A DNA stretch of 31,339 bases from IMG/VR virus record IMGVR_UViG_3300033182_000245, positions 1-31,339 of that record. The stretch is one strand, 5' to 3'. The position numbers were made by a program, and so were the translations under genes. Positions 2,938 through 18,359 of this stretch are shown one piece after another. The stretch is from a virus. The number at the start of each line of letters is the position of its first letter. Position 1 is the stretch's first letter. Below the pieces are notes generated by a model. The model was not told the origin of the DNA and did no database searches. It saw nothing but the letters and a program-made list of their open reading frames with translations.

Positions 2938-3149
2938 TAGAGCGCCGTCCAATCTGATCCGTCGAAATACTGAATGCTGTCCGTGTCAGACAGATAAGTG
3001 AACATCCCCTCCGAAGGGGAAGCGATAGCCGAAGCACGCGCCGCCGTACCCGCGAACACCATGAACGCCTGATCCATGATGTATGTCTGTACGTCAGAGG
3101 CCGTGAGTACGTCGCCTGCTGTGAAAGTCTTGAATCCTGCTCCTGCCAT
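2937..3149 (-). CDS. Small minor-tail protein; stand-alone paralog of the fibre N-terminal domain
   Basis: 70 aa: MAGAGFKTFTAGDVLTASDVQTYIMDQAFMVFAGTAARASAIASPSEGMFTYLSDTDSIQYFDGSDWTAL. About 60% identical to residues 1-70 of the next gene, but diverged at synonymous sites. Confidence 0.7.
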   Translation of the reverse strand: MAGAGFKTFTAGDVLTASDVQTYIMDQAFMVFAGTAARASAIASPSEGMFTYLSDTDSIQYFDGSDWTAL

Positions 3150-3157
3150 TGTGTCTC

Positions 3158-4375
3158 CTAGAATCCAAGTTTGTCATCGTCGAGAACGCCGAAGATTGCT
3201 GAGTCAAGTATGAATGATGCTTGCGCTCTCGACATCGACAATCTGACTCGATGATTCGCTGGCGTGATCGTGTGTTCGATTCTGTCGAGTGAAGCGTATT
3301 GTGTGATCGCTGAACCAACTGTTGGCTGAAACGTCACTTCTAATGGCGCAGCGATGTCGATCGCGGCGATGGATTTCTGTTGCGCTGTTGTGAGTGCGTT
3401 CATGTTCACATCGACGCTCTGAATGCGTAACAGCGGATCTTTGTAGCGACTGAGCAGATACGACGCGAGATCGCTCATCTCTGTGTCATCGTCGAATAGC
3501 AGATTCGACTTCGATAGATCACTCACGCCATATGTCGTCTGTGATGTTGCGTCAGTCGCGACAGCAGTTCCGCCGTTGACGCGTGACAGAGTGATGCTGT
3601 TGTAGAGAGTCTCTGTGCCGTAGTCGACTGTGACTGTTTCGAATGGAATACCTGTGCCGCCAATGAGTGTTGATGCGCCGAAGTCTTGAACTGTCGCGCG
3701 ATCATGAAACGTTGCGTTGCCTTCGCGTGACATGAAGAACGCGCCGAACTCTGTGTCGTTGACTCGCTGCAGGTAGTCGAGAACGTTCGTGTCTTCTTCT
3801 GGCGTGTCTGCTTGCAGCGTGACTTCGCCTGTGTCGATGCTGCGTTTGCTCGTTGGCCATGCTGCTTCTGTCAGAACAGCACCGACGCGAGCACCTGACG
3901 TTTGTGCGCTGCGCGTTGCTGTGCTCATCGTTACTTGACCAAGTGTGATGAATCCATCGAGACATGCTGCTGTCGTCGTTGAGTCTTCGCGTTGAAAGTC
4001 AAGATTCCAGTCATCGACAAGACCAGTGAAGATCGGCTCATTGTTGATGACGATCTGCACATTCTTACGAGGCACGATGCTGTTGGCATATGGGCTGATT
4101 GCTGTGCCTGCTGTCGGATCGAATAAGCGATCACGATTGTCGAGAACGATGTTCGCTGTCGCTGCTTGTGTGCGATCGAGCAGACGCGAACTACCTCGAG
4201 AGATTGAGACGCTGCGAACGTACTGAGTGACATCGACTAGCGAATAGGCTCCGCCGAGGGTGTAGATGCTGTTATCGAGTACGCCCTTCACGCTGTCATC
4301 GAGTGTGAAGAAGTTCGTCGCTCCGCCTGCGCCTTCGTCGAACGCGAAGACAACTTGCACATCAGGGATCGCCAT
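3158..4375 (-). CDS. Minor tail protein (distal-tail-protein-like)
   Basis: 405 aa, directly after the tape measure with a 1-nt overlap. The N-terminus MAIPDVQVVFAFDEG...FFTLDDS resembles siphophage tail proteins found in this position. Confidence 0.65.
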   Translation of the reverse strand: MAIPDVQVVFAFDEGAGGATNFFTLDDSVKGVLDNSIYTLGGAYSLVDVTQYVRSVSISRGSSRLLDRTQAATANIVLDNRDRLFDPTAGTAISPYANSIVPRKNVQIVINNEPIFTGLVDDWNLDFQREDSTTTAACLDGFITLGQVTMSTATRSAQTSGARVGAVLTEAAWPTSKRSIDTGEVTLQADTPEEDTNVLDYLQRVNDTEFGAFFMSREGNATFHDRATVQDFGASTLIGGTGIPFETVTVDYGTETLYNSITLSRVNGGTAVATDATSQTTYGVSDLSKSNLLFDDDTEMSDLASYLLSRYKDPLLRIQSVDVNMNALTTAQQKSIAAIDIAAPLEVTFQPTVGSAITQYASLDRIEHTITPANHRVRLSMSRAQASFILDSAIFGVLDDDKLGF

Positions 4376-7287
4376 TACGCCACCTGAATGGGAACGGGTC
4401 CGTTGCTGCGTTGATAACGCTTCAACGCTTCAACAATCTGACGGCCTACTTCTGTGCCGTCTGTTCCCATGCCAGCGTTGACAGTCAAGTTGATCGTCGA
4501 GCCCACGCCTGCGCGAGTGTTTGTCGTCAATGCAGAGTTCGGCACGACGTAACCTGAAACGTCAGGCACGAACAGTTCGGGTCCCTTCTCACCGATGAGA
4601 TAAGGGCTGCCTCCGGTGACGGGTCCACCCATCGCTCGCGGTGGTGCTGTGATCGTGCTGACCATGCGCGTGACTTCTTCGTTGATGCGTCGAGTGACGT
4701 TGACATCGATGCGTACTTGACGATCTGCTTTCTTCGCGAGATCGTCCATGATGCGCATGAGTTCTTTGCGACCCTTGCCGCCTTTGCCCATGTATTTGTC
4801 GAAGCCTTTGACTGTGTTCCATGCGCTGTCAACGCCTGCGTCTTTGAACTGTTGCGCAGCGAGCAAGCCAACTTCGTCTGCTGCATCTTGTGATGACTTC
4901 ACAAGTTTGTTCGTTTCATCGATCGCAGTCGAGCCGCCGGCGATAAGTTCATCAGCGATGCGCGTTCCAGCGTTGACACCAGCAGCGAGAACTTGCTGCA
5001 ATGCTTCTTCTGACAAGTCCATCGCGATCAACTGCTTGATCTTCGTCGAGAACTCTTTGACTTTCTCTGCTTGCGCTTTCAATCCTTCAAGGAAAGTCAT
5101 GCCGACGCGTTCGCCGTCTTCGTTGAACTCGGGTGCAATCTCAGAGAAGTTGATGTTGCCAATGATCGACGATGCAACATCTCGCGCATAGTCTTTGAAT
5201 ATCTGACGCTGCGCTTCAAGTTCTTGCTTCAAGCCTGCGCGAACGCTCTTCACCTTATCGATGAACGCTGTCTGCATCGCGGCGCGAACGTTGTCGCCGC
5301 CTGCTTCAAGAGCATCTGTCAGGCCGTTGATGATGTCAGCACCGAAGCCCGCAAACACCTTCGATGGTGAGGCGATGCCGAGTGCTTTCTTGAACGGACC
5401 AACAATCCATGAAGGGAGTTGATCGAGAAAGAAGCGACCCATGTTCGGTAGCAGTTGTGATGCTCCATCCATCAGGCCTTGAATCATGTCTTTGCCTGTC
5501 TGGAACAACCAGTCTTTCGCGTTGCCTAATGCTTCACGCACAGTCTCAGGAAGTTCACGCACAGTATCGATTGCGTCGCTGATCGCATCGATGACTGTCT
5601 TTCCGAAGTTGAATATCTTCTTGCCAACTTTGAATGCTTCAACACCGACATCGAAGAAGTATGCAGCCGTGTCGATCAACCCACTGATGAGAAGTCCAAG
5701 GCCTTCAATCAACTTCGACAGATAGAACTCATAGAACTTCGCGATCGCAGGGATGACGTACTTGTTCAAGAACTCCCAGACAGTCGAGAATGCTTGCTTG
5801 ACTGCATCGATCTTGTCTGCGTTCTCGTCGAGTTTCTTCTTCAACTGATCGACTGCTTGCGCGACAGCAGCACGCACAGCATTCCAGATCGCGATGACAC
5901 CGTTACGGAATGCTTCGCTCTTCGTCCACAGCAGCACGACGACAGCGACGAACGCTGCGACTGCTGCGATGACAGCGAGCACAGGCAGACTGATCGCGCC
6001 CATCACACCTACGAGAGCGCCGAGTGCGCTGACGACAGCACCAAGCACGATCAGCAAAGGTCCGACTACTGCTGCGATCGCAGCGAACAGCATCGCCATC
6101 TTCTTCTGTTCAGGTGATAACGCTTTGAATGCTGCGACAAGTTGCTGCAACTTCTCTGCCGCCATCTCAACGAACGGCGCGATTGCGTCGCCTATCTCGA
6201 TGAGACTGTTCTTGACGCTCGACAAAGCCTGCTGCAACTGAAAGCCAGAAGTGCTCGCTGTCGCTTCGAACGCTGAATCGAGAATGCCTGTCGTGTCAGA
6301 CATGCGTCCGAAGATGTCTTCGGTTGTTTCAGCACCAGCACCGAGCATGTCCATGACACCAGTGAGCGCACGCACGTTGCCGAAGAACTTCGCAGTCGCG
6401 ATTGTGTTACCACCGAAGCGATCTTTCAATAGTTGCAGCGTCGCAAGCAATCCATCTTCGCGCAGAGACTTGCGCAATTGCTTGTATGACAGATCAACAC
6501 TCTTCAAGGCCTTTCGACCCTTCGGTGTTTCTTTCGCAATCGAAGCCAAGATGCCGCGCACTTGTGTTGCTGCTTCGCTCGCGTTTGTTCCAGTTCGAGA
6601 CATGGATGCGAAAGCAGCACCAACTTCGTCAAACTGGACACCCATCGCAGATGCGATCGGGAGAACTGCGCCCATCGCGCCAGCAAGTTCAGCAGGTTCA
6701 AGTTTGCCTTCTCGAACTGCTGCGGTGAGAACGTCTGTTGCTGCTGACGCTTTCAACGTATCGCTTCCGTATGCGTTCATCGCTGATGTTGCGAGATCAG
6801 CGATTGTTTGCACTTCACCAAGACCTGATGCTGACGCTTTCAGAGAAGCCTCGAGAACGTCCATTGCATCTGAACCGCGCAACCCAGCAGAGGTGATGAA
6901 GAACAAAGCGTCTGCTGCTTCTGCACCTGTCTTGCCGAACTCGCTTGCAAGATCGATGACAGGCTGACGCATCGCATCGACTTCTTCTTGCGCGATACCA
7001 ACAAGTCCGACGATCTTCGACATCGATGTGTCAAAGTCCATCGCCATCTTTGACGCTGCAACACCAACGCCGACGATCGGTAGCGTAACTCCAAGTGTCA
7101 TCTTCTTACCGACAGATGACATCTTCTTTCCGAAGTCCTGCATCTTCGAACCGAAGGCAGCGAACTTGTCACTCGATGTCTTGACCTGCTTGCGCAGTTT
7201 GTCGAGATCCTTGTAGGCACGCTCAAGGTCTTTGCCGTCATACTTACCTGCGACAAGAACATTGACTGCTGGTGTTCTAGGCATCAC
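4375..7287 (-). CDS. Tail tape measure protein
   Basis: 970 aa. TP901-type core (MSKIVGLVGIAQEEVDAMRQ...ADALFFITSAGLRGSDAMDVLEASLKASASG), a central hydrophobic stretch, and C-terminal GGPVTGGSPYLIGEKGPELFVP. Confidence 0.92.
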   Translation of the reverse strand: MMPRTPAVNVLVAGKYDGKDLERAYKDLDKLRKQVKTSSDKFAAFGSKMQDFGKKMSSVGKKMTLGVTLPIVGVGVAASKMAMDFDTSMSKIVGLVGIAQEEVDAMRQPVIDLASEFGKTGAEAADALFFITSAGLRGSDAMDVLEASLKASASGLGEVQTIADLATSAMNAYGSDTLKASAATDVLTAAVREGKLEPAELAGAMGAVLPIASAMGVQFDEVGAAFASMSRTGTNASEAATQVRGILASIAKETPKGRKALKSVDLSYKQLRKSLREDGLLATLQLLKDRFGGNTIATAKFFGNVRALTGVMDMLGAGAETTEDIFGRMSDTTGILDSAFEATASTSGFQLQQALSSVKNSLIEIGDAIAPFVEMAAEKLQQLVAAFKALSPEQKKMAMLFAAIAAVVGPLLIVLGAVVSALGALVGVMGAISLPVLAVIAAVAAFVAVVVLLWTKSEAFRNGVIAIWNAVRAAVAQAVDQLKKKLDENADKIDAVKQAFSTVWEFLNKYVIPAIAKFYEFYLSKLIEGLGLLISGLIDTAAYFFDVGVEAFKVGKKIFNFGKTVIDAISDAIDTVRELPETVREALGNAKDWLFQTGKDMIQGLMDGASQLLPNMGRFFLDQLPSWIVGPFKKALGIASPSKVFAGFGADIINGLTDALEAGGDNVRAAMQTAFIDKVKSVRAGLKQELEAQRQIFKDYARDVASSIIGNINFSEIAPEFNEDGERVGMTFLEGLKAQAEKVKEFSTKIKQLIAMDLSEEALQQVLAAGVNAGTRIADELIAGGSTAIDETNKLVKSSQDAADEVGLLAAQQFKDAGVDSAWNTVKGFDKYMGKGGKGRKELMRIMDDLAKKADRQVRIDVNVTRRINEEVTRMVSTITAPPRAMGGPVTGGSPYLIGEKGPELFVPDVSGYVVPNSALTTNTRAGVGSTINLTVNAGMGTDGTEVGRQIVEALKRYQRSNGPVPIQVA

Positions 7288-8260: not shown

Positions 8261-8668
8261 TTATGCGGTTGCGCGAGTGACGGTGCCAGAGACAGGCCAG
8301 GTCACCGAGAGTGTCGCGAGGTCGCCGACGCTTGATGCGAATGGCTGATACTGATTGACGAGACAGTTCGCCGTGTAGGACGGATTCGTCGATGCAACGC
8401 TGTCACTGGTCGGCAGAATGACGACAGTTGCGATCGTGTTCAACAGCGGGAACAGAGTTGCGTCGACGCTTGATGCGCCGAAGTCTTGATGGAACTCTAG
8501 GGTGAGTGATGCTTGCTTCAAGCCGCCGACGCGAGTACGCCATTCGCCACCGAATGCGGTCGTCTCAACGTCGTCGCTTTCAACGGTCAACTCGACGCTC
8601 GCGAGAGAAGTCGAGAAGTCGGTGCCGTTGATCGACACCGAGTAGTCCGTGGCTACGAACTTTGCCAT
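8261..8668 (-). CDS. Major tail (tube) protein
   Basis: 135 aa with a strong AAGGAG SD. Lies between the head-tail genes and the chaperone. Composition looks beta-rich (VSINGTDFSTSLASVELTVESDDVETTAFGG). Confidence 0.65.
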   Translation of the reverse strand: MAKFVATDYSVSINGTDFSTSLASVELTVESDDVETTAFGGEWRTRVGGLKQASLTLEFHQDFGASSVDATLFPLLNTIATVVILPTSDSVASTNPSYTANCLVNQYQPFASSVGDLATLSVTWPVSGTVTRATA

Positions 8669-8683: not shown

Positions 8684-9091
8684 TTATTGTGCGATGACCT
8701 GAACGACGAACTCCGCCGCCAGATAGGTTACTTCTCCAACTACAAGTGATTGATAGTTTCTCATCTCTTGCACACGCAGGTCGCTTGCTGCACCGCCAAG
8801 CGTCCGGTCGGACTCAATGGCAGTCTTGATACTCGATGCGCCTGTTGGATTGCAGTACGCGTCGAGAGTCGTCTGTGCTGTTCGTTCGCTCACTCGTCCA
8901 ACGATCACGATGATCACGAACTCGTATGTATCGAGTCCGCGTGCGTAGGCTGTGTCGTATGTGATCGTGCGAGGAATGACGACAGCGATTGGTGGATTCG
9001 GTTGATCGGGAACTGTTGATGCTGTGCGCAGTCCTGAGATCGTCGCGAGATTCGTTGCGATACCTGAGCGAAGTGTTGTGAGCGTTGTCAC
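8684..9091 (-). CDS. Head-tail joining / tail-terminator-like protein
   Basis: 135 aa, GTGA overlap with the upstream gene. Called on position and size. The YEFVIIVIVGRVSERTAQTTLD segment resembles DUF3168-type neck proteins. Confidence 0.55.
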   Translation of the reverse strand: MTTLTTLRSGIATNLATISGLRTASTVPDQPNPPIAVVIPRTITYDTAYARGLDTYEFVIIVIVGRVSERTAQTTLDAYCNPTGASSIKTAIESDRTLGGAASDLRVQEMRNYQSLVVGEVTYLAAEFVVQVIAQ

Positions 9092-9681
9092 GCGACGCCT
9101 CGATTGCGAATGTATGGCGTGACAAGTTGTGCAACGTCAGGGTCTAGGCCTTTGCTGACTCTCATTGCGCCCATCTCTCCGAAGCCTGCGATGCCGAGTG
9201 GTGAGTCAAGTCGCTTGAAGATTCTGCTCGCTTGAATGACTGCTGCTTGTGTGATGCTCGCTGGCACGGCAGGGAAGCCGAACGTGCCTGTGATCTTGAC
9301 TGTCTTCTCTCCGTATGCGGTTGGGAAGATGTAGTCGTCAACTGCACGGATGCGAGTGTAAGGCCATGACAGTCCATCTGCGACTGCATTCAAAGGTTCG
9401 AGTTGATAGTCCTTCGCAGCCCAGGTTACGTCATAGACTTGATCTGACAGCGTGCTTGTTTGCAGCGTGATCGCTGTGCCTGCGAGATCGTCGATGTTGA
9501 TGACGTAGGAATCATGCGGCGCGAAGTAGCGAGTCGCTGAGACTGTGCCGAATGTGCGTTGACAGTAACCATCGATCAGTTCGCTTGCTGCGCTTCCAGC
9601 CATCTTGATCAGAGAGTTATCAACATCATCCGTGATGCGCAATGCGGTTTTGATCTGATCGGTGCTTGCGTACAGAGTCAT
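9088..9681 (-). CDS. Head-tail connector protein (gp6-like N-terminal domain)
   Basis: 197 aa. TDQIKTALRITDDVDNSLIKMAGSAASELIDGYCQRTFG matches the Phage_connect_1 pattern. Confidence 0.7.
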   Translation of the reverse strand: MTLYASTDQIKTALRITDDVDNSLIKMAGSAASELIDGYCQRTFGTVSATRYFAPHDSYVINIDDLAGTAITLQTSTLSDQVYDVTWAAKDYQLEPLNAVADGLSWPYTRIRAVDDYIFPTAYGEKTVKITGTFGFPAVPASITQAAVIQASRIFKRLDSPLGIAGFGEMGAMRVSKGLDPDVAQLVTPYIRNRGVA

Positions 9682-10217
9682 CTGTTCTCCTTGACGATGC
9701 CTACGAAGTAGAGATCATGTGATTGATTGTTGATCTCGAACTCGTATGCATCGAACAGTTCATCGAGATCGAATGCTTGTGTGAAGTCATCAACTGTCAG
9801 GTTCTTGTAGTAATCCCAGCCAACAGTATGTGGTGATGCGCCTGGTGTTGATCGTGACGTTCCGTGTTCTGCTCTGCCTGTTGTCGCGCATGTCATGATC
9901 ACGACTGCGTTGCTCATGCGAATCATGTTCGCGAATGTTTCACGCCAGAACGGATTATGTTCGAAGCATTCTGCGCTCAGTACGACATCGAAACTGTTGT
10001 CATCGAGATCCAGTTCTTGCGCTGCACAGACAAGATCAACGCCAGGTCCTTCTCCGACATCGACGCCGACATATTCGCAATCAACGAAGAAATCACGCGC
10101 TGACCCGTTGATATTGAGCGAGCCGATGTCGAGCACACGCTTCGCGTTGAACATGTCAGGCATTCTGTCGCGTACTTGTTCGAAGAACACGCGCTGCTCA
10201 ACGTGCGCCATGATCAT
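9678..10217 (-). CDS. Class I SAM-dependent methyltransferase (glycosylation cassette)
   Basis: Motif I is KRVLDIGSLNINGS, with a later VLSAECFEH. The start is uncertain (ATG at 10217 or 10211; the track start at 10256 is less likely). Overlaps the GT2 stop. Confidence 0.75.
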   Translation of the reverse strand: MIMAHVEQRVFFEQVRDRMPDMFNAKRVLDIGSLNINGSARDFFVDCEYVGVDVGEGPGVDLVCAAQELDLDDNSFDVVLSAECFEHNPFWRETFANMIRMSNAVVIMTCATTGRAEHGTSRSTPGASPHTVGWDYYKNLTVDDFTQAFDLDELFDAYEFEINNQSHDLYFVGIVKENR

Positions 10218-10863
10218 CCCATGACAGATCGCGACGACGACGCAGCATGAACTCACCTGCAGTCAGATCGTTACGAAACACTTTGCGTTCGTAGTAGTCA
10301 CGATTTGCTGAGAACGTGACTTCATTGATCGATCGATAGCCAGCGTCGAGTGTGCTGCTGTTGTCATGATGAACAGCGATGTTACTGTGCAATGTTGTGA
10401 ACTGCATCGCTCGCGTGCGCCGCTCGTAATCGTTGTCCTCAAAGTACGCCGGATGCAATGCTTCATCGAACAGGCCTACTGTTGACACGACTTCATCGCC
10501 GAGCATGAAAGCACACCATGGAGGCGAGCCGCCTGACAGAAGAAGCATGTCGCGTTCTTGCAGACCATCGAACAGCGACAATGACCCTGCTGGCCATGTG
10601 ATGTCGAAGTTGCAGATCAGCCATGATCGAGCGAACGGCGTTACTTTGATGCCAAGATTCCATGAACCTGCGACACCTAGATTCGCTGGCATGGGTAGCA
10701 GCGAGAAACGTTTGATGTGTTTCTTCCAGCGCACTTGCTTCGGATCAACGCATCGTCCGTTGTCGATGACGACAAAGTGTTCGATGTCATGATCGATGCT
10801 GTCGATCATGCGATACAGCAGATCGTCACGCGTCAAGATCGGAACGATCATCGCGTCAATCAT
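10198..10863 (-). CDS. Family 2 (GT-A) glycosyltransferase
   Basis: 221 aa. IVPILTRDDLLYRMIDSI, NLGVAGSWNLGIK and the acidic FEDNDYERR motif. Confidence 0.8.
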   Translation of the reverse strand: MIDAMIVPILTRDDLLYRMIDSIDHDIEHFVVIDNGRCVDPKQVRWKKHIKRFSLLPMPANLGVAGSWNLGIKVTPFARSWLICNFDITWPAGSLSLFDGLQERDMLLLSGGSPPWCAFMLGDEVVSTVGLFDEALHPAYFEDNDYERRTRAMQFTTLHSNIAVHHDNSSTLDAGYRSINEVTFSANRDYYERKVFRNDLTAGEFMLRRRRDLSWDDHGAR

Positions 10864-12101
10864 GACAGCGCCTTGATTGATGGTCGCCAGAAGTGATCGA
10901 AGATGAAGTCTGCGTCGTACTGCGAAGCAAACTCAATCGCTTTGTCGCTGCGTACTCGACCACGCTCATACGCTTGCTGCAATGCGTCAACGATGCTCGC
11001 TACTCGAGGCGTGACAAGCCATGACTTCTGCATCGCATCCCACCATGGCTGTCCATCAACTAGCCAGCCGTCGCCGCACAGTTCTGTTTGCGCTGTCGCA
11101 TCAGTCATGATCACAGGCGTTCCACATGCCTGCGCTTCGATCGCGGGAATGCCGAAGCCTTCTCCCATCGACGGTTGCAAGAACACATCCATCGCTGTGT
11201 AGATCGATGCGAGAACTTCTTGTGTCATGCCTGAGCGATACGCGTACTGATCGACGAATACGATCTGCTCATCTTTGATGCCGCACGCTTGCGCGAGTTC
11301 ACGCAGATTGATTCCACCCATCGCGCCGCGATCTTCTGTGTGCAGATACAGCACAGCGTCATCGTGTTTCTGCGCGAACATCGCGAACGCGAGAAACGCT
11401 TCAGGGAACGCTTTGCGATTAGGCACGACGCCTTTGTTCGCTGAGTTCATTCCGACAACGAACTTGTCATCAGCGATCTCGATGATGTCGCGCCCAGTCA
11501 TCGAGCCGTTCGATGTCTTGATGTTCTCTGTCGGCTTGAAGACTTGCTCGATCGCGTGAGGAATGTAGAAGCATTTGATGTCAGCGTTGTGCAGCATTGA
11601 TTCGCCGAAGCGACTCATCGCGATTGGTGTCACGTTGTCGCGCTTGCACCATGCGAGAACGTCAGGCGGCGCGGGCATGTGATCGATTGGTACCCATGAT
11701 GCGATCTGATCGATCAAGTCCCATTGCTTGCCTTTGTAGACCCATACGTCATAGAGCGTGATTAGCAACGGGTTCTCGCTGTTGTTCTCATGCGCCCATG
11801 CGTACAAGTGCGCAGGAATGACATCGTTGCTGTGAAGATCGTAGCCGCGTGGAAAGACTTTGATGCCTTCCCAGATTGTTGCTGCGCCTTCTAGTCCGTA
11901 GTTCGACGCGATCGCGATCGCGTGCTTGTCTTCTTTGAGGCGTTGCGTGACTTGCGCTGTTTGTTGCCCGTAGCCTGTCGTGGCGTGTGGGGAGTTGCTT
12001 GCCCAGAGTATGGTGCGGCGAAGTTCGCTCGAATCAACAGTTGCCCTATGTGCGGCGGCACGCTTAGCAGGGTTCCCAGAACGTTGATCTGCATTGGACA
12101 T
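10860..12101 (-). CDS. GT-B fold glycosyltransferase (GT4/GT1-like)
   Basis: 413 aa. PSMGEGFGIPAIEAQACGTPVIMTD is the canonical E-x7-E/GT4 C-terminal signature. Confidence 0.8.
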   Translation of the reverse strand: MSNADQRSGNPAKRAAAHRATVDSSELRRTILWASNSPHATTGYGQQTAQVTQRLKEDKHAIAIASNYGLEGAATIWEGIKVFPRGYDLHSNDVIPAHLYAWAHENNSENPLLITLYDVWVYKGKQWDLIDQIASWVPIDHMPAPPDVLAWCKRDNVTPIAMSRFGESMLHNADIKCFYIPHAIEQVFKPTENIKTSNGSMTGRDIIEIADDKFVVGMNSANKGVVPNRKAFPEAFLAFAMFAQKHDDAVLYLHTEDRGAMGGINLRELAQACGIKDEQIVFVDQYAYRSGMTQEVLASIYTAMDVFLQPSMGEGFGIPAIEAQACGTPVIMTDATAQTELCGDGWLVDGQPWWDAMQKSWLVTPRVASIVDALQQAYERGRVRSDKAIEFASQYDADFIFDHFWRPSIKALS

Positions 12102-12129: not shown

Positions 12130-12175
12130 GTCTGTCAGGGAGCCGAGTCCTGCGCGCCCCGACTCCCTGACAGAC
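12130..12175 (-). terminator. Stem-loop immediately 3' of the major capsid gene (13-bp perfect stem), no U-tract
   Basis: gtctgtcagggag (12130..12142) pairs with ctccctgacagac (12163..12175). It lies 19 nt after the capsid stop. Confidence 0.45.
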
Positions 12176-12193: not shown

Positions 12194-13393
12194 CTAAGAA
12201 GCGCCGCCAGCGAAATACTTGATGTGCGAGGTCTGCGGCAAGTTGCCGTCCACGCGGAACGTGGCACGGAACGTCACCAGACCATCGGCGAACGCGTAGT
12301 CGTCCGAACGATCGAGACGAATGCCGCCGACCTGGCGAACGATGTACGACGGCATGTGACCTGCGATGACAGACTTCGCAGAAGTCGCAACGCTAGCCAT
12401 CGCCGGGTTCTCGATCAGCGGGAAGCCGAGCACGCGATCCGGGGTGCCGTCTGCGAGCGAGGGCTGGAAGACGTACTGACCGGCGCCGTCTTGCAACTTG
12501 CGCATCTCAGCGATCGCATCGCCGGAAGCCATGACTGCGAAGCCAGGCAACTGACGAGCAGCCGCGTCGGTCGAGTAGATCAGATCCACGAGGTTGTCGT
12601 AAGTGAAGACGCCAGACACACCGGTTCCACCAGTGACGCCAGAGCCTGCAGCAGCGACAACGCCCTTCGGCTGAACAGTTCCCGTACCAGTCGTTAGTGC
12701 GCTGTTCACGGCGTAGCCCAGAGCGTTACCAACGTTGGTGCTGATCAGCGACAGGATGTCAACGCCGCTGTCCTCAATGAGTTCCGTCGAGACCTGAGTC
12801 AGGAAGGAATACTTGAACGCGCCGAGAGTGATGAACGCGTTCATCGTCGGATCAGACTCGCCGATCGTCGAAGCCTCGGACGTAACAGTTCCAGTGCTGT
12901 ATGCGGACAGCGAAGGAATCTGCAGGTTCTCGCCACCAGCGGTGTTGAGAACAGTCGAAACCTCGAGCATCGGTCCTACCGCGCGAGCGAGGTAGAGGAC
13001 CTGATCGTAGAAGGACGTAGGCACAGGTGCGCCAGTGGAACTCTTGGTAACGTCACGCTGCTCGAACGTAGCGGAGCGCATCTCGCCACGAGCGAGAGAG
13101 CGAATGATGTCAACATCGCTGACAGCAGCCTTCTCGTCTTCGTCGTCAGACGGACGAGCGATGTTCTCGAAACCGCGAACTGCTTCGGCGATCTCGGCGT
13201 CACGACGCTCTTGCTCCATCATCTCCTTGATGATGTTTCCGCGTCGATCCATGTCAGCGAATGCAGCCTGTACGGACTGCTCTTCCTCAGCAGAAAGTTC
13301 GCGAGCCTCGCTTGCGGCGCGATCCATGATCTCCTTGGCCGCTTCGTAAGCGCGAGCACGCTCTTCGTTCTGCCGCTTGATGTAATCCGACAT
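12194..13393 (-). CDS. Major capsid protein, HK97 fold, with N-terminal coiled-coil delta-like domain
   Basis: I place the start at ATG 13393 (MSDYIKRQNEE), which is preceded by AAAGGAG. The track start at 13462 has no SD. Called on position after the protease, size (399 aa) and a charged helical N-terminus of about 100 aa. Confidence 0.85.
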   Translation of the reverse strand: MSDYIKRQNEERARAYEAAKEIMDRAASEARELSAEEEQSVQAAFADMDRRGNIIKEMMEQERRDAEIAEAVRGFENIARPSDDEDEKAAVSDVDIIRSLARGEMRSATFEQRDVTKSSTGAPVPTSFYDQVLYLARAVGPMLEVSTVLNTAGGENLQIPSLSAYSTGTVTSEASTIGESDPTMNAFITLGAFKYSFLTQVSTELIEDSGVDILSLISTNVGNALGYAVNSALTTGTGTVQPKGVVAAAGSGVTGGTGVSGVFTYDNLVDLIYSTDAAARQLPGFAVMASGDAIAEMRKLQDGAGQYVFQPSLADGTPDRVLGFPLIENPAMASVATSAKSVIAGHMPSYIVRQVGGIRLDRSDDYAFADGLVTFRATFRVDGNLPQTSHIKYFAGGAS

Positions 13394-13505
13394 TCGGACT
13401 ACTCCTTTCGGCTTGTTGTGTGTGTGTTTGTCGCGCAGGTGCTTCCCGATGCGGCTCCGCAATCGAGATCGACGCGCGGCTCCGCAGCGTCGAAGTTTGT
13501 GTGTG

Positions 13506-14897
13506 TCAGATCGTCTTGTAGATCAGATCGAGTTGCTGGCGTAGAACTGACAGCGGGACTGTCGGTTCTTTCTCAACTTGTTCAGGCTCTGGAGCGAGCG
13601 TATCGACGACGTTTCGCAGAAGTGACGCTTGACTATCGTCGAGCGTTTCTCCCGCTTCTAACGCGATCAGAGCGTCTGCAAGAGCGTCTGCGTCTTGCTG
13701 CGTGCGCTGCGCGAGCGCATCGAGTTTGCGAATCGTCGCTGTCGTCGCAGGATACGCTGGCCAGCCAGTCACCACAGACACCTCATGAAGACGGACTTCG
13801 TTGAGTGTGCGAGTCGCGCCGTCGTCTGACCATTCGTCGCCGCCGTTGGGAACTGAGAAGCCGAAGGACATTGAATCGACTACGCGTGTGCGCAGCAGTT
13901 CAGCGAGATCGTTCCCGTAGGTAGTGTTGGGTAGGTCTGCTTCTGCGAACAAGCCTCGAGAGTCTTCACTCAAACGCAGCGTGCCTGATCGTGTCGTGGC
14001 GAGCACTTGATCATCGTTGTGATTGACGAACATCTTGATGTTGTTACGCGATGACAGCGTGCGCTTGAATGCGCCTGGGTTGATGCGCTCCGTGAACGGT
14101 AGGGGTTCGCTGTCGCTGTTGAAGACTGCTGCGTATCCCATGAATGTGCGGCCTTCGCTGCTTTCGCGCAGTTCGAGATCGTCAACGTGAATCTCACGCG
14201 TTTCGATGTTGCTCATCTGATTCCTATCTGCCTTGATGCGATCCGCTTGACGTTCGAGCCAACGGCGCGCAGGTCCTGGATTCAATGGATTGATTCCCCA
14301 GAGGTAGTGAGCGACTGCTCCAGGACCTGGCCATTCAGGATCGTCGCTGTTGCTGTTCTTTGCTGCTTGTAGATCAACTTGATGACGCGCAGCCCACGCG
14401 TTCGCTCGAATCACTTTGTCATCACTCATGCGACCTGCTGCCATCTCGCGTGCTTCGCGAATCGTGCCTTGAGTTAGACCGTCGCCTCCGTAACCTTCGC
14501 GACGTAGTTCTAGACCTCGACGCGCTGCGCTGCGCACATAGGCTGGAACTTCAACAGCACGATTCTCGTTTGCTTGCCAAGCGTTGCAGTAGTAGTCACC
14601 GCGAACATAATCATTCCATCGAGTGCAGAACGCCATGTCATCTTGCGTGTTGCTTTCGTCGTAGAAGAAACAGTTTCCACACGCTCGACCTGCTGGAACG
14701 TTATCTTCCAACGCTGGCCGATAGTTCGCTGGCAATGCTCGCTCTCCGCCTGGCTCCATGTCTTCTGCGATCGACACAGCAACCATCTGATCGATTGCTG
14801 CTTGCTTCGTCGAGTGACAGCCAATGACTTCGCCGTCTTCTTTCTCAACAGCCCAACCTGAACAGTCAGGATTGCTGTCGCTGATGAAGTAAGGCAT
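13506..14897 (-). CDS. Prohead protease (HK97/S78 family) fused to an N-terminal region of about 250 aa
   Basis: Start ATG 14897 (MPYFISD), 1 nt after the portal TGA. The C-terminal half (FMGYAAVFNSDSEPL...INPGAFKRTL...VNHNDDQVLATT...DSMSFGF) matches the S78 protease. The N-terminal half contains a Cys-rich segment (CGNCFFYDES...FCTRWNDYVRGDYYCNAW) and an ARRGLELRREGYGG module. Confidence 0.85.
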   Translation of the reverse strand: MPYFISDSNPDCSGWAVEKEDGEVIGCHSTKQAAIDQMVAVSIAEDMEPGGERALPANYRPALEDNVPAGRACGNCFFYDESNTQDDMAFCTRWNDYVRGDYYCNAWQANENRAVEVPAYVRSAARRGLELRREGYGGDGLTQGTIREAREMAAGRMSDDKVIRANAWAARHQVDLQAAKNSNSDDPEWPGPGAVAHYLWGINPLNPGPARRWLERQADRIKADRNQMSNIETREIHVDDLELRESSEGRTFMGYAAVFNSDSEPLPFTERINPGAFKRTLSSRNNIKMFVNHNDDQVLATTRSGTLRLSEDSRGLFAEADLPNTTYGNDLAELLRTRVVDSMSFGFSVPNGGDEWSDDGATRTLNEVRLHEVSVVTGWPAYPATTATIRKLDALAQRTQQDADALADALIALEAGETLDDSQASLLRNVVDTLAPEPEQVEKEPTVPLSVLRQQLDLIYKTI

Positions 14898-14898
14898 G

Positions 14899-16251
14899 TC
14901 ATACCTCGTATGCAGACTGCGGATCTTCAGGATCGATCTGTGCGATATTCTGCAACTGCACAGAAGGCAAGCCAGTGTGATCCATGTTCGGTAGATCAAC
15001 TGCTTGCAGAACCTCAGATGGGTCGAAGCCAGCGAGAATCAAACGCTGCGCCATGAGCACGCGCTTCTCAGTTTCGATGATGTTCGCTGCACCAAGATTC
15101 ACATTCGCGAGTGGCACGCGATACTCGTCACCACCATCGACTGGTCGCATGTCTTCGAGTCGATGAATGTCATTGATCGACAAGAAGCCTGATTGCATTC
15201 CTGTTGAGTATGCGCTGAATCGTGTCTGTAAGTCGCCGCGCAAGATCGCGTCGAGATTGAAACGCAAGAATCCTTCGTTCGAGATGAGCGTCGAGTACGC
15301 TGTTTCGAGTTTCGAGACGTAAGGCCTGAGGGTGTATTGGGCGAACTGGATCGCGTTCTGTTCCACACTCGCATACGACATCGCGCCTGGAGTTGCGACT
15401 TGTAGCAGATGCAAAGGCACACGAAAGATGCGAGCGATCTCTTCGACTGCGAACTGTCGTGATTCGAGCATCTGTGCTTGCTCAGGATCGACAGTTGTCT
15501 TGACGTACTTCGCACCACCGCCGAGCACACCGACGCGATGTGAACGCTGCAGGCCCTTGTGTGTCGCTTCGAATGCTGTCTTCAACTCCAACGCTTGTTC
15601 GCTGTTCATCATCGCTGGTGTCTCGATGATGCCGCTTGTTGTCGAGCCTTGACCGAAGAAGCGTGCGCTGAACTCTTCAAGTGCTGACGCAAGGCCTAGA
15701 GTTTGTTTGACTTCTTCGATTCGTGACACGCCACGCATCGAGCCTGGGCGTCGAAGTTCTGTGATGTGCAGCATGTCGCGTCGAGAGATGATCGTCTTGT
15801 CCTCGTACAGGAACTCGATCTCGTTCGATGTGCGATTGCGTTGCACTTTGACTTTGTGAGGGTCGAGCACAACGAGAGCGACAACTTCACCGCGCGGGTT
15901 ACGAAACACGCGAATGAATGCGTTGCCGTCGAGCAGCAGAGACACCATGACTTGCTGCAGGTGATCTTCACGCGTCACGCCAGCGTCAGGCGTCAGTACC
16001 CATTCAGGTCGAGGCCTGTACGGTACGCGATCGCCGTCGCGGCGGATGAACGTGTCAGCAGGAAGAGTCGAGATCGTGTCTGATAGCAGACGAACGCACG
16101 CATAGACAGCGCCGAGTTTCAGCGAAGTGTCTTGCGTGATGACTGTGCCTGCGTATGTGCGAGGAGCGATGTCAGCACCAGAAGCGAACAGCGATTGAAA
16201 CGAGATCGCACGCTGTTCATCGTCGCCTCGAGAGAACAAGTTGCGCAGCAT
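14899..16251 (-). CDS. Portal protein (HK97 family)
   Basis: 450 aa. LKLGAVYACVRLLSDTISTLP and overall similarity to the HK97-type portal pattern. Position is between TerL and the protease. Confidence 0.88.
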   Translation of the reverse strand: MLRNLFSRGDDEQRAISFQSLFASGADIAPRTYAGTVITQDTSLKLGAVYACVRLLSDTISTLPADTFIRRDGDRVPYRPRPEWVLTPDAGVTREDHLQQVMVSLLLDGNAFIRVFRNPRGEVVALVVLDPHKVKVQRNRTSNEIEFLYEDKTIISRRDMLHITELRRPGSMRGVSRIEEVKQTLGLASALEEFSARFFGQGSTTSGIIETPAMMNSEQALELKTAFEATHKGLQRSHRVGVLGGGAKYVKTTVDPEQAQMLESRQFAVEEIARIFRVPLHLLQVATPGAMSYASVEQNAIQFAQYTLRPYVSKLETAYSTLISNEGFLRFNLDAILRGDLQTRFSAYSTGMQSGFLSINDIHRLEDMRPVDGGDEYRVPLANVNLGAANIIETEKRVLMAQRLILAGFDPSEVLQAVDLPNMDHTGLPSVQLQNIAQIDPEDPQSAYEV

Positions 16252-16404: not shown

Positions 16405-17913
16405 CTAAGTTATGAAGAAAGGTTCAACAGTTTCAGGTTCGTTCTCGCGCACTTGCGTCGCTCGATCGAAAGCCATTACAGCAGCAACAGCCGTGTCGAT
16501 CTTGCGCGGCGATCCTCGATGCTCTTTCACGATGCGAGGTCCGAGGCGATCGTACTTGATCACACAGTTGTCGATGTGTCGTGCGAGCGTCGGATTGTGA
16601 TCGTGCGCAAGTTCACGCGAACCGACAGCATCGTAGAACTTCGCAGTCGCAGGCACCATACGCGCTGGACTGCTCGATGAATACTCGACAACAGGCAAGC
16701 CGGCGGCTGACCAGTTCTCCATCTCGCGCTGATAGCGATACGGATCGCACACAACCTCGACAACATTCAACTCAGCGCAAGTGCGCATCATAACAGCATC
16801 AACTTCTGTCATTGGCACGCGCCAGTCGTCTGTGTCTGTCTGCTTCTTCTCCCACACATCGACGACATAGATGCGAGGCTTGTCTTCGACAGTCACAGCG
16901 ACGATCGCTGTCGCGTCATTGCTGAACGAACCGTCAAAGCCGATGACGACTTCTGTCTGATCGTCGAGCGCGTCAGCAGTATCGAGATCATCCCACGCGC
17001 CAGCAGGCATCCATGCTTCTTGCGCGTTCACCCATAAGTTCATGCGCTTCGTTCTGAACTCAGCCTCAGGTGTGCGCTTGACTGCTGAATGAAAGTCCTC
17101 AGGATCGTTGATGTCATCGAATCCAGGATTCGCAGCGATCCAGTTCTTAGGGTCGCGATGATCAACTTCGTCTTGCGACTTCCACCATGACATGAAGAAC
17201 GAGTCGTCTTTGATCTCACCCTTCGCGATCTGCTCACCGTACTGAAACAAGCGATAGCAAGTGCTGTCACGCCCTGTCGAGTCGTACTTCACTCCAGCAG
17301 TTGTCATCGCAAGCATCATGCTGTCTTTGCGCGCCGCTTGACCAAGTTGCATGACGTTGAACAGTTCATCATTCGGCGCAGCATGAAGTTCGTCGTACAA
17401 CACCAGCGAAGGACTGAGGCCTTCTTTCGTGAACGCTTCACTCGACAGCACGCGATACACGCTGCCCGTGTCAGGCACTTCGATCGCGTCGCGATACACC
17501 TTCGTGACAGCAGACAACTCAGGTGACTGCTCAACCATCGTGCGCGCCGCACCGAACACGATGCGAGCCTGATCACGATCAGCAGCACACGAATACACCT
17601 CGCCGCCGCGCGGACCCATCAGCAAGCCATACAACGCGACGCCAGAACCTAACGCCGACTTGCCATTCTTTCTCGCCATACCGACAAGAGCAAGCCGATG
17701 ACGAAACCTACCGTCACTACGACGAGCAAACACATGATCGAGCAACGATCGCTGCCAGTCTCGTAATCGAATCGACTCACCAGCATGACCACCAATCGAA
17801 TCCTTCACCTGAACACACAAAGTCTCGATGAACTCACCCACAAGAGCACCATCACCGCGCTTACGATCAGCAGCAGCAACACGCGTGAGCAGCGCAGGCG
17901 GCCACGCTTTCAC
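16405..17913 (-). CDS. Terminase large subunit
   Basis: 502 aa. Walker A-like VGMARKNGKSALGS, Walker B-like LVLYDELHA, and a C-terminal nuclease region (VIGFDGSFSNDATAIV). Confidence 0.92.
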   Translation of the reverse strand: MKAWPPALLTRVAAADRKRGDGALVGEFIETLCVQVKDSIGGHAGESIRLRDWQRSLLDHVFARRSDGRFRHRLALVGMARKNGKSALGSGVALYGLLMGPRGGEVYSCAADRDQARIVFGAARTMVEQSPELSAVTKVYRDAIEVPDTGSVYRVLSSEAFTKEGLSPSLVLYDELHAAPNDELFNVMQLGQAARKDSMMLAMTTAGVKYDSTGRDSTCYRLFQYGEQIAKGEIKDDSFFMSWWKSQDEVDHRDPKNWIAANPGFDDINDPEDFHSAVKRTPEAEFRTKRMNLWVNAQEAWMPAGAWDDLDTADALDDQTEVVIGFDGSFSNDATAIVAVTVEDKPRIYVVDVWEKKQTDTDDWRVPMTEVDAVMMRTCAELNVVEVVCDPYRYQREMENWSAAGLPVVEYSSSSPARMVPATAKFYDAVGSRELAHDHNPTLARHIDNCVIKYDRLGPRIVKEHRGSPRKIDTAVAAVMAFDRATQVRENEPETVEPFFIT

Positions 17914-17915
17914 GA

Positions 17916-18359
17916 TTACCTCGAAGCAGCCTTCGCTTGCAAACGTTCAAGCGCAGACATCGCACGAACCTCAGCGACACCTAACTTGCCACGCTCAGAA
18001 GGATTCCATCCAAGCACACTCAGCCAGCGATGAATCTGATCCTCGATGTTGCGCAACGCGACACGATCACGCCATTCGCCCTCACCAGACAAGACAAGTT
18101 GACGCAAGAACATGCGCTCATCCATCGACTCGCAAAGCATCTGCACAAGTTCAATGTCAGTCGTAACAGACAGCCATGACGCGCCAGACGACCAGACGCG
18201 ATGCCACATCTTCGAACCTTCTGCACCTAACTCACGCAAAGGATCAGGCGTGCTCTCAGCAGCAGGCAACGCAGTCACGCTCGACAACTTCGGCAAAGGC
18301 CTCTTGCCGGGATTGCCAGCGCGACGCTTCTTCTCAACAGGCTTCGCTGGATTCGGCAT
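17916..18359 (-). CDS. Terminase small subunit (P27 family-like)
   Basis: 147 aa. Basic N-terminus PNPAKPVEKKRRAGNPGKRPLP, then GSKMWHRVW...DIELVQMLCESMDERMFL, typical of P27-type TerS. Confidence 0.75.
   Translation of the reverse strand: MPNPAKPVEKKRRAGNPGKRPLPKLSSVTALPAAESTPDPLRELGAEGSKMWHRVWSSGASWLSVTTDIELVQMLCESMDERMFLRQLVLSGEGEWRDRVALRNIEDQIHRWLSVLGWNPSERGKLGVAEVRAMSALERLQAKAASR

What the first reader, a model, noticed from the sequence alone, without database searches (positions are those of the whole stretch)
9678..12101. Glycosylation cassette (GT-B + GT-A glycosyltransferases + methyltransferase) inserted between the capsid and head-tail connector genes
Three overlapping genes sit inside the otherwise canonical capsid -> connector run, in the same late transcription unit. 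The motifs (E-x7-E GT4 signature, GT2 DxD-like FEDNDY, SAM motif I VLDIGS) are read directly from the translations. From memory, some mycobacteriophages that encode glycosyltransferases next to their structural genes glycosylate capsid and tail-tube subunits, which alters antibody recognition. The added methyltransferase suggests an O-methylated glycan. A 13-bp-stem hairpin separates the capsid gene from the cassette and could tune its expression downward.
Basis: partly seen in the sequence, partly recalled or inferred. Interest (0 to 1): 0.62.

Follow-up and report, generated by a model that had tools for sequence, protein, structure and literature searches.

The report
Capsid-linked phage glycosylation gene island
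A complete 31-kb phage of an aquatic actinobacterium has two sugar-transferase genes and a methyltransferase gene between its capsid and head-tail adaptor genes. This is one version of a variable sugar-gene island present at that spot in nearly all of its relatives, and it probably coats the virus particle with sugars, though that is unproven.

Summary
Three translationally coupled minus-strand genes lie between the HK97-type major capsid gene and the head-tail adaptor gene:
- a retaining GT4/GT-B glycosyltransferase with an intact E-x7-E motif;
- a GT-A/GT2-like glycosyltransferase;
- a class I SAM methyltransferase.

Three details need correcting:
- FEDNDY is the conserved GT2 "ED" motif. 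The DxD slot reads N-F-D87.
- The methyltransferase most likely starts at 10217 or 10211, not 10256.
- The hairpin after the capsid gene also occurs in relatives that have no cassette, so it belongs to the capsid gene.

The cassette is not an odd insertion. 86 of 98 related contigs carry the GT4 gene directly after the capsid gene. Seven have an empty slot and five could not be classified. The genes after GT4 vary: GT2, GT1-like, methyltransferases, a cytidylyltransferase, a sugar epimerase/dehydratase. Full-length GT4 homologs were found only in phage contexts, always next to head genes.

The best reading is late virion protein glycosylation with a methylated glycan (confidence about 0.5). 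This is analogous, not homologous, to Corndog and Che8. No acceptor site could be shown. Host-envelope modification and DNA glycosylation are weaker rivals.

Earlier follow-up agents of this scan reported capsid-linked glycosylation islands of this kind, built from other enzyme families, in other phage genomes.

The parts
12194..13462 (-). Major capsid protein, HK97 family, with an N-terminal delta/scaffold region. The true start is probably the internal ATG at about 13393 (residue 24).
   Evidence: PF05065 4.6e-52. Homologous to the RcGTA capsid 6tb9. Relatives align from residue 22-24.
12130..12175 (-). Strong stem-loop after the capsid stop codon: 13-bp perfect core, about 18 bp in all, no U-tract. 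Likely a partial terminator or mRNA 3' stabiliser of the capsid message.
   Evidence: MFE -44.5 kcal/mol, z = -3.0. Not found by the U-tract terminator scan. A hairpin occupies the same position in relatives both with and without the cassette, with a compensatory A-U to C-G change between the window and L053.
10860..12101 (-). GT4-family (GT-B fold, retaining-type) glycosyltransferase. It is the conserved first gene, or anchor, of the island. It has a basic, disordered N-terminal tail (aa 1-29).
   Evidence: Pfam and PHROG hits. E314-x7-E322 and K223 are invariant. AlphaFold2 pLDDT 89.9. Foldseek matches to MshA and chlorovirus 3oy2, TM about 0.7. It follows the capsid gene in 86 of 98 related contigs.
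10198..10863 (-). GT-A fold, GT2-like glycosyltransferase, probably inverting. It carries IDN, NLGVAxSWN, N-F-D87, YFEDNDY and HHDNSST motifs.
   Evidence: phrog_29879 2.1e-37. TIGR01556 rhamnosyltransferase, partial match 2.8e-7. Family alignment. AlphaFold2 and Foldseek give a GT-A fold. At least 2000 metagenomic homologs; the longest contigs among the 120 listed are about 30-33 kb.
9678..10217 (-). Class I SAM-dependent methyltransferase, about 177-179 aa (start ATG at 10217 or 10211). Inferred to be a sugar O-methyltransferase.
   Evidence: Methyltransf_11/23/25. phrog_32762 4e-74. Start inferred from homolog alignment. Lies near GT genes in 33 of 47 viral loci.
9088..9681 (-). Head-tail adaptor (gp6-like). 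It forms the downstream border of the island, and its start codon overlaps the methyltransferase stop codon.
   Evidence: PF05135 and phrog_442. ATGA overlap.
8261..8668 (-). Tail tube protein, 27% Ser/Thr. A candidate acceptor alongside the capsid protein.
   Evidence: phrog_4574 3.5e-35. Composition. The C-terminal comparison was inconclusive.

Best explanation
The three genes form one variant of a GT4-anchored, modular glycan-synthesis island. It is transcribed and translated together with the late head and tail genes of a lytic, phiPsal1-like actinophage.

Proposed mechanism, inferred and not shown:
1. During particle assembly in the cytoplasm, the soluble retaining GT4 enzyme transfers a first sugar from a host nucleotide-sugar onto Ser/Thr of a virion protein. 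The acceptor would be the capsid protein, possibly also the tail tube or fibre.
2. The inverting GT2-like enzyme adds a second sugar.
3. The SAM methyltransferase O-methylates the glycan, capping it.

Relatives swap the genes after GT4, so different phages would display different glycans on their particles.
For: - **Shown: enzyme identity.** The folds and catalytic motifs are intact.
- **Shown: coupling.** Start and stop codons overlap in a chain from GT4 to the tail terminator, all within the late operon.
- **Shown: soluble proteins.** None of the three has a hydrophobic segment (maximum KD19 below 1.0 once the spurious methyltransferase N-terminus is excluded). Pfam scans of most ORFs of 100 aa or more found no integrase, flippase or polymerase, though several ORFs had no hit.
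- **Shown: linkage to head genes.** GT4 directly follows the capsid gene in 86 of 98 related contigs. The GT4 family also lies next to head genes in five other types of structural module: S-CBS4-like, Mae-JY09, L166/L167, L168 and L174. The full-length homologs found in the 185,579-species genome collection, where their context could be read, lie on phage-like contigs.
- **Shown: variable content typical of surface-glycan loci.** Relatives carry a cytidylyltransferase, an NAD-epimerase/dehydratase, extra GTs and other methyltransferases. One swap separates the window from L053/L054, whose flanking proteins are 87-97% identical to the window's.
- **Shown: methyltransferase association.** The methyltransferase family is found with GT genes in 33 of 47 loci.
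- **Precedent.** Corndog has a methyltransferase and three GTs in its head module, and these enzymes modify capsid and tail-tube proteins (PMC11600133). F1 phages Che8 and Rita have glycans on the capsid (PMC11256854). From my own knowledge, chlorovirus PBCV-1 glycosylates and methylates its capsid glycan with virus-encoded enzymes.
Against: - No virion has been examined, and phiPsal1, the only phage of this group recovered from a host culture, is lost (PMC6106888).
- There is no detectable homology to the experimentally validated Corndog or Che8 enzymes.
- No acceptor signature was found. The capsid and tube C-termini are alike in relatives with and without the cassette. Loss of conserved Ser/Thr in cassette-less lineages is not significant (p = 0.21 and 0.82). 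Neither the capsid nor the tube protein has an S/T repeat tag.
- The nearest solved structures (MshA, BshA, PimB', WaaG) act on small molecules or lipids, not proteins.
- Conserved gene order alone could keep GT4 beside the capsid gene within a single lineage.
Confidence: 0.5

Rival explanations
1. The enzymes modify a host cell-envelope glycan (cell-wall polysaccharide, teichoic-acid-like polymer or glycolipid) during infection. This could block superinfection, or stop progeny from adsorbing to debris of lysed cells.
For: - This is the usual suggestion for GT genes in freshwater actinophages (PMC10202952).
- The GT4 fold neighbours MshA, PimB' and WaaG act on small-molecule or lipid acceptors.
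- Soluble GT4 and GT2 enzymes commonly act on lipid-linked intermediates at the membrane (general knowledge).
- Relatives carry nucleotide-sugar enzymes, as cell-wall glycan loci do.
Against: - The genes sit in the late head operon of an apparently lytic phage. No integrase was found, and phiPsal1 is described as lytic.
- No flippase, GtrA-like or membrane component is present.
- The family is tightly linked to head genes across unrelated structural modules.
- Full-length homologs were absent from cellular cell-wall loci among the hits examined.
Confidence: 0.2
2. The enzymes glycosylate phage DNA (base hypermodification) before packaging, to evade restriction.
For:
- Known DNA-hypermodifying phage GTs include GT-A enzymes with DDD...EDY/F motifs and GT-B enzymes that resemble MshA and BshA (bioRxiv 10.1101/2023.12.21.572611).
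- Late expression is compatible with modification before packaging.
Against: - Pfam scans found no 5hmC-producing enzyme (TET/5mYOX or ThyS-like hydroxymethylase) in the window.
- The cassette lies 12 kb from the DNA-modification genes, whereas such pathways are normally clustered.
- phiPsal1 has the full cassette, but its annotation lists only an N6 methylase and no cytosine-C5 pathway.
- The family is linked to capsid genes, not replication genes, in all lineages examined.
Confidence: 0.07
3. The genes are an auxiliary metabolic cassette. They would make a methylated glycoside or small glycoconjugate (for example a mycothiol-like or compatible-solute-like compound) that supports infection and has no role in the virion.
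For: The best structural neighbours are small-molecule GT4 enzymes: MshA, BshA, sucrose-phosphate synthase and trehalose transferase.
Against: - The matches are fold-level only, at 12-17% identity.
- NCBIfam scores are far below the family cut-offs (41 bits against 462.5 for MshA).
- The variable downstream GT content and the strict head-gene linkage are not expected for a metabolic gene.
Confidence: 0.05

Closest known systems
Mycobacteriophage virion glycosylation: Corndog (cluster O) gp35-38, and Che8 (cluster F1) gp108-110. Source: Freeman et al. 2023, Cell Host Microbe 31:1216. That paper is not held here and was read only through PMC11600133 and PMC11256854.
   Same: - An actinophage encodes several soluble GTs; Corndog also has a methyltransferase.
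- In Corndog the genes lie inside the head-morphogenesis module, in the order portal, MT, GT, GT, GT, then the capsid gene further on.
- The proposed outcome is the same: glycans on capsid and tail-tube subunits.
   Different: - There is no detectable sequence similarity to any Corndog or Che8 enzyme.
- The anchor here is a roughly 400-aa GT4 family not found in mycobacteriophage records.
- The island lies between the capsid and adaptor genes.
- Gene content varies widely among close relatives.
- The hosts are aquatic actinobacteria and other aquatic bacteria.
- The glycosylation is untested.
Pontimonas phage phiPsal1 (MG835450) genes 010-012
   Same: - The same three families lie between the capsid and neck genes of a 31-kb WhiB-encoding phage with the same gene order throughout.
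- Protein identities to the window are 43% (GT4), 39% (GT2) and 56% (MT).
   Different: - The methyltransferase is on the opposite strand and sits between the two GT genes.
- The genes are annotated in GenBank, but the paper does not discuss them.
Synechococcus phage S-CBS4 gp014-016 and about 15 similar viral contigs; Microcystis phage Mae-JY09
   Same: - S-CBS4 itself has homologous GT4, GT2 and MT genes in the same order inside the head module.
- Mae-JY09 has the GT4 gene shortly after its capsid gene.
   Different: - The hosts are cyanobacteria and the structural modules are unrelated.
- In S-CBS4-like contigs the cassette lies between the portal and protease genes.
- In those contigs the middle genes are Gly_transf_sug and DUF4422 proteins instead of the window-type GT2.
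Chlorovirus capsid glycosylation (PBCV-1 Vp54; A064R with two GT domains and a methyltransferase domain), and the chlorovirus GT4 B736L (PDB 3oy2)
   Same: - The virus encodes its own cytoplasmic GTs plus a sugar methyltransferase for the capsid glycan (my own knowledge).
- 3oy2 is among the three best structural matches to the window GT4, with TM 0.70-0.73.
   Different: - It is a eukaryotic giant virus with N-linked atypical glycans.
- Sequence identity is only about 16%.
- The function of B736L is itself unknown.

Membership tests
CAZy GT4 (GT-B fold, retaining glycosyltransferases) | Two-Rossmann GT-B fold | tested here: met
   AlphaFold2 pLDDT 89.9. Foldseek matches to MshA, 3oy2, BshA, PimB' and WaaG at E 1e-15 to 1e-11.
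CAZy GT4 (GT-B fold, retaining glycosyltransferases) | C-terminal E-x7-E motif and a conserved basic residue that binds the nucleotide diphosphate | tested here: met
   E314-GFGIPAI-E322, K223 and R229 are invariant in 25 relatives. Pfam Glyco_trans_1_4 and Glycos_transf_1 score above their cut-offs.
GT-A fold / GT2-like glycosyltransferases | GT-A Rossmann-like fold | tested here: met
   AlphaFold2 pLDDT 83.3. Foldseek matches to AvpGT, GlfT2, K4CP and ppGalNAc-T at E 1e-8 to 1e-6. Some homologs hit PF00535.
GT-A fold / GT2-like glycosyltransferases | DxD metal/nucleotide-sugar motif after beta-4 | tested here: inconclusive
   The window reads N-F-D87, where relatives have SDD or NDD. Only the last Asp is invariant. 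A degenerate xDD occurs in some active GT2 enzymes (my own knowledge), so activity is plausible but unproven.
GT-A fold / GT2-like glycosyltransferases | Acidic "ED" catalytic-base motif | tested here: met
   In YFEDNDY, E142 and D143 are invariant.
Class I SAM-dependent methyltransferases | Motif I (hh[DE]hGxGxG-like) and the Rossmann core | tested here: met
   VLDIGS at residues 41-46 of the listed ORF. Methyltransf_11 scores 26.5 bits against a cut-off of 21.2. phrog_32762 4e-74.
Class I SAM-dependent methyltransferases | Substrate is a sugar hydroxyl (O-methyltransferase) | not testable with these tools
   Support is by association only: GT genes lie within about 4 kb in 33 of 47 loci. PDB sequence hits are weak and generic.
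Mycobacteriophage-type virion glycosylation system (Freeman et al. 2023) | Glycans covalently attached to capsid or tail-tube subunits | not testable with these tools
   This needs virions. The searches for an acceptor signature were negative or inconclusive.
Mycobacteriophage-type virion glycosylation system (Freeman et al. 2023) | Homology to Che8 gp108-110 or Corndog gp35-38 | tested here: not met
   BLASTP and hhalign found no significant match; the best hhalign probability was 1.6%. No mycobacteriophage appeared in the tblastn hits.
Mycobacteriophage-type virion glycosylation system (Freeman et al. 2023) | Phage-encoded GT genes (with or without a methyltransferase) placed in the structural gene block, as in Corndog | tested here: met
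Serotype-converting phage glycosylation (GtrABC-type) | Temperate phage with a GtrA flippase, a GtrB bactoprenol GT and a membrane GT near attP/int | tested here: not met
   No integrase was found, the three proteins have no membrane segments, and the genes are in the late operon.
Phage DNA sugar-hypermodification pathways (5hmC glycosylation) | GT clustered with a 5hmC-producing enzyme (TET/5mYOX or a ThyS-like hydroxymethylase) | tested here: not met
   No such gene is present in the window, and none is annotated in phiPsal1.

The most novel reading that the evidence does not exclude
The GT4-anchored island after the capsid gene is a widespread, rapidly shuffling "glycan serotype" locus of environmental siphophages that infect aquatic actinobacteria, cyanobacteria and other bacteria. 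Sugar-coated virions would then be common in nature, not a peculiarity of mycobacteriophages. The glycan would be under diversifying selection from an ecological pressure not yet identified, such as adsorption to non-host surfaces, decay by proteases, grazing, or host decoy or lectin traps. The conserved Thr280 loop of the capsid protein is one candidate attachment site.
Probability: 0.3. Interest if true: 0.65.

Novelty: new variant of a known kind. Interest (0 to 1): 0.45.

Why it matters
Glycosylation of a phage particle by the phage's own enzymes has been shown only in mycobacteriophages, where it alters antibody recognition.

Suppose the GT4-led island does the same in these aquatic phages. 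The GT2-like protein alone has at least 2000 metagenomic homologs, and more than 560 viral contigs encode related capsid proteins. Particle glycosylation would then be a common, evolutionarily mobile trait with an ecological role that has nothing to do with mammalian immunity.

The island's modular variation also offers a natural series for linking gene content to glycan structure.

If the target proves to be the host envelope or DNA, the strict linkage of this GT4 family to head genes would itself need explaining.

Tried and rejected
- **C-terminal acceptor tails.** From memory, this is where Che8 glycans attach. The capsid ends ...F(x)GGAS/GGTA and the tube ends ...VTRATA in relatives both with and without the cassette, so they do not discriminate.\n- **Columns that are Ser/Thr only in cassette-bearing phages.** Capsid T280 is Thr in 72 of 74 such phages, and Ala or Asp in both cassette-less lineages. 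S/T260, S/T360 and tube T134 also stand out. About 2.3 such columns are expected by chance and 4 were seen. For the stricter T280 pattern, about 0.44 columns are expected and 1 was seen. This is a lead only.\n- **Excess loss of conserved Ser/Thr after cassette loss.** Not significant: L056 shows 23% against 12% (p = 0.21), and L060 shows 31% against 34% (p = 0.82).\n- **S/T-repeat tags on virion proteins.** Earlier scan notes described such tags for other islands. None is present on the capsid or tube protein here.
Full report
**What the window is.** The window is a complete 31,339-bp viral record with direct terminal repeats. All late genes are on the minus strand, in this order:
- TerS (17916-18359);
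- TerL (16405-17913);
- portal (14899-16251);
- S78 prohead protease with a long N-terminal extension (13506-14999);
- HK97-type major capsid protein (12194-13462);
- the three genes in question;
- head-tail adaptor (9088-9681);
- tail terminator (8684-9091);
- tail tube (8261-8668);
- tape measure (4375-7287);
- a Gly-rich fibre (1084-2952).

The early region encodes WhiB, SSB, RusA, a C5-cytosine methylase-family enzyme and a further methyltransferase. Pfam scans of most ORFs of 100 aa or more found no integrase, TET/5mYOX or thymidylate-synthase-like gene, although several ORFs had no hit. WhiB points to an actinobacterial host. The gene order matches Pontimonas phage phiPsal1 (31,069 bp) from end to end, with 36-62% protein identity. 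That phage was described as lytic and is no longer available (PMC6106888).

- *GT4.* The 10860-12101 product hits Glyco_trans_1_4 and Glycos_transf_1 above their cut-offs, and phrog_2170. It has E314-x7-E322, which is invariant in 25 relatives along with K223 and R229. The AlphaFold2 model (pLDDT 89.9) is a GT-B fold. Its best matches are the retaining GT4 MshA, the chlorovirus GT4 3oy2, BshA, PimB' and WaaG.
- *GT2-like protein.* The 10198-10863 product has no Pfam hit. It matches phrog_29879 (2.1e-37) and models confidently (pLDDT 83) as a GT-A fold, with matches to AvpGT, GlfT2, chondroitin polymerase and ppGalNAc-T.
- *Methyltransferase.* The 9678-10256 product is a class I SAM methyltransferase (Methyltransf_11; phrog_32762 4e-74; motif VLDIGS).
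- *Coupling.* The genes are translationally coupled: ATGA at GT4/GT2, a 14-20-nt overlap at GT2/MT, ATGA at MT/adaptor and GTGA at adaptor/terminator.
- *Solubility.* None of the three has a membrane-like segment, apart from a spurious N-terminus in the listed methyltransferase ORF.

- FEDNDY is the invariant GT2 "YFED.DY" acidic motif (E142, D143). The DxD slot after beta-4 reads C-N-F-D87, where relatives have SDD or NDD.
- Methyltransferase homologs align from residue 14-16, so the start is probably the ATG at 10217 or 10211.
- The hairpin lies at 12130-12175. It has a 13-bp perfect core that extends to about 18 bp, and the whole fragment folds at -44.5 kcal/mol (z = -3.0). It lacks a U-tract, and the terminator scan did not call it.
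- A strong hairpin occupies the same place after the capsid stop codon in almost all relatives checked. These include those where the adaptor gene follows the capsid gene directly (L056-58, L060/63/65). The window and L053 differ by a compensatory A-U to C-G change.
- The hairpin therefore belongs to the capsid gene. It is likely a partial terminator or 3' stabiliser that sets high capsid mRNA levels relative to everything downstream. It is not a control specific to the cassette.

**The cassette is one allele of a conserved but variable island.** Three scans of viral contigs were run, with the methyltransferase, the adaptor and a capsid alignment as queries.
- More than 560 contigs encode related capsid proteins.
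- Of the 98 contigs analysed downstream of the capsid gene, 57 have a filled slot bounded by both flanks. Another 29 have GT4 after the capsid gene before the contig ends. Seven, from two lineages, are empty, with 92-136 bp holding only the hairpin. Five are cut or unclear.
- GT4 is always the first gene. One contig has GT4 alone (L163).
- The second gene is either the window-type GT2 or a GT1-like protein.
- The remaining genes vary: window-type methyltransferase (a minority: the window, L005, L055, L007, L008, L069, L080 and phiPsal1), other methyltransferases, a cytidylyltransferase (PF01467), an NAD-dependent sugar epimerase/dehydratase (PF01370) and several unknown families.
- L053 and L054 have flanking proteins 87-97% identical to the window's. 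Even so, three other genes, including the cytidylyltransferase, replace the methyltransferase there.
- Fixed flanks, a fixed first transferase and shuffled downstream sugar genes are what surface-glycan loci look like.

**The GT4 family and the methyltransferase family in other phages.**
- The GT4 family follows head genes well outside this lineage. It lies between the portal and protease genes in Synechococcus phage S-CBS4 and about 15 similar contigs. It lies shortly after the capsid gene in Microcystis phage Mae-JY09. It lies within about 1 kb of a capsid or adaptor gene in contigs whose capsid proteins tblastn does not detect as related (L166, L167, L168, L174).
- In the scan of one genome per 185,579 prokaryotic species, every full-length homolog whose context could be read lay on a phage-like contig in a metagenome bin. 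Other cellular hits were only generic matches to the C-terminal domain.
- The GT2-like protein has at least 2000 metagenomic homologs. The longest contigs among the 120 listed are 30-33 kb, which is phage-sized.
- The methyltransferase family lies within about 4 kb of recognisable GT genes in 33 of 47 loci, across at least seven different contexts. The partners are GT4, GT2, Gly_transf_sug, DUF4422 and, in one context, a 2OG-Fe(II) oxygenase.

**What it most likely does.** The best-supported reading is late cytoplasmic glycosylation of a virion protein, with methylation of the glycan. It rests on:
- soluble enzymes co-translated with capsid and connector proteins;
- strict and repeated linkage of the anchor GT4 to head genes;
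- glycan-locus-like variability;
- no lysogeny genes and no membrane components;
- precedent.

For precedent, Corndog has a methyltransferase and three GT genes between its portal and capsid genes, and these enzymes modify capsid and tail-tube proteins (PMC11600133). Che8 and Rita carry capsid glycans (PMC11256854). From my own knowledge, chloroviruses glycosylate and methylate their capsid glycan with their own enzymes.

The order of action is an inference from gene conservation and enzyme class only: GT4 first, then GT2, then the methyl cap.

**What weakens this reading.**
- The enzymes have no detectable similarity to Corndog gp35-38 or Che8 gp108-110. The relationship is analogy, not family membership.
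- I could not identify an acceptor. The C-terminal tails do not differ between relatives with and without the cassette.
- Capsid Thr280 sits in an otherwise variable Gly/Ser/Thr loop (AAAGSGVTGGTGVSG). It is Thr in 72 of 74 GT4-linked capsids, and Ala or Asp in both cassette-less lineages. With only two loss lineages this is within chance (about 0.44 columns of that pattern expected, one seen).
- Conserved Ser/Thr are not lost preferentially after cassette loss (p = 0.21 and 0.82).
- There are no S/T-repeat tags on the capsid or tube protein. The fibre has one S/T tract.

**Rival readings.**
- *Host-envelope modification (0.2).* This is the default suggestion in the freshwater actinophage literature (PMC10202952), and it fits the lipid and small-molecule GT4 structural neighbours. 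It fits poorly with the late head-operon position in a lytic phage and with the head-gene linkage.
- *DNA glycosylation (0.07).* I took this seriously for three reasons. DNA-modifying phage GTs include GT-A enzymes with EDY/F motifs. They also include MshA-like GT-B enzymes. Against it, there is no 5hmC-producing enzyme, the cassette is 12 kb from the DNA-modification genes, and phiPsal1 has the cassette with only an N6 methylase.
- *Small-molecule metabolism (0.05).* Only fold-level matches support this.

**Novelty and score.** The genes are already annotated at this position in phiPsal1 (2018) and S-CBS4. Phage self-glycosylation is known from mycobacteriophages. Earlier follow-ups in this scan reported capsid-linked GT/MT islands built from other enzyme families (Maf-like, FlmG-like, other GT-A) in other phages. 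What is added here:
- a phage-restricted GT4 family acts as the anchor;
- the island is the majority state across dozens of aquatic phage contigs;
- its content is modular;
- the hairpin is a capsid-gene feature.

I rate it a new variant of a known kind, with interest 0.45.

Noticed in passing
window 13506-14999 (-): In the prohead protease ORF, the S78 domain covers only aa 275-426. The N-terminal part, about 240 aa, has a Cys-rich stretch and an RRGLELRR motif. It is homologous to free-standing 100-216-aa proteins that follow the methyltransferase gene in S-CBS4-like cyanophage contigs (jackhmmer 1e-26 to 1e-32). There is only a weak DUF6496 hit. The real start is probably Met35, overlapping the portal stop codon.
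   Followed up: partly
window 12014-12101 (-), GT4 residues 1-29: GT4 has a basic, disordered N-terminal tail (pLDDT below 65). In relatives the tail varies from 0 to about 45 aa and often begins N-R-A-x-R-R. It precedes the conserved ILWxSNxPxxxTGYGxQT core. Its role is unknown; it might be a targeting or docking peptide.
   Followed up: partly
window 12596-12649 (-), capsid residues 272-289: Thr280, in a variable Gly/Ser/Thr loop of the capsid protein, is conserved in 72 of 74 capsids linked to GT4. It is replaced by Ala or Asp in both lineages that lack the island. It is a candidate glycan attachment site, but the pattern is not statistically significant.
   Followed up: yes
window 12130-12175 and the equivalent position in L053, L056-58, L059, L060-65, L062, L068, L072-75, L081: A long GC-rich hairpin after the capsid stop codon is conserved in position, but not in sequence, across the phage group. 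It is present whether or not the glycosylation island is present.
   Followed up: yes
window 1084-2952 (-), fibre residues 444-458: The Gly-rich tail fibre (PF21722) carries the only dense Ser/Thr tract in the virion proteins (TSSSSNSTTGTSSRL). It could be an alternative glycan acceptor.
   Followed up: no
L041, L043-L045 (viral contigs): In another phage group the same methyltransferase family follows a run of four genes of about 250 aa. These include a 2OG-Fe(II) oxygenase and a GT2, which suggests a different sugar- or protein-modification cassette.
   Followed up: partly
window 23895-25630 (-): Pfam confirms a C5-cytosine DNA methylase-family protein (5.2e-49) next to a class I methyltransferase. 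An earlier follow-up read this pair as CmoX/CmoA. It was used here only to weigh the DNA-glycosylation rival.
   Followed up: partly
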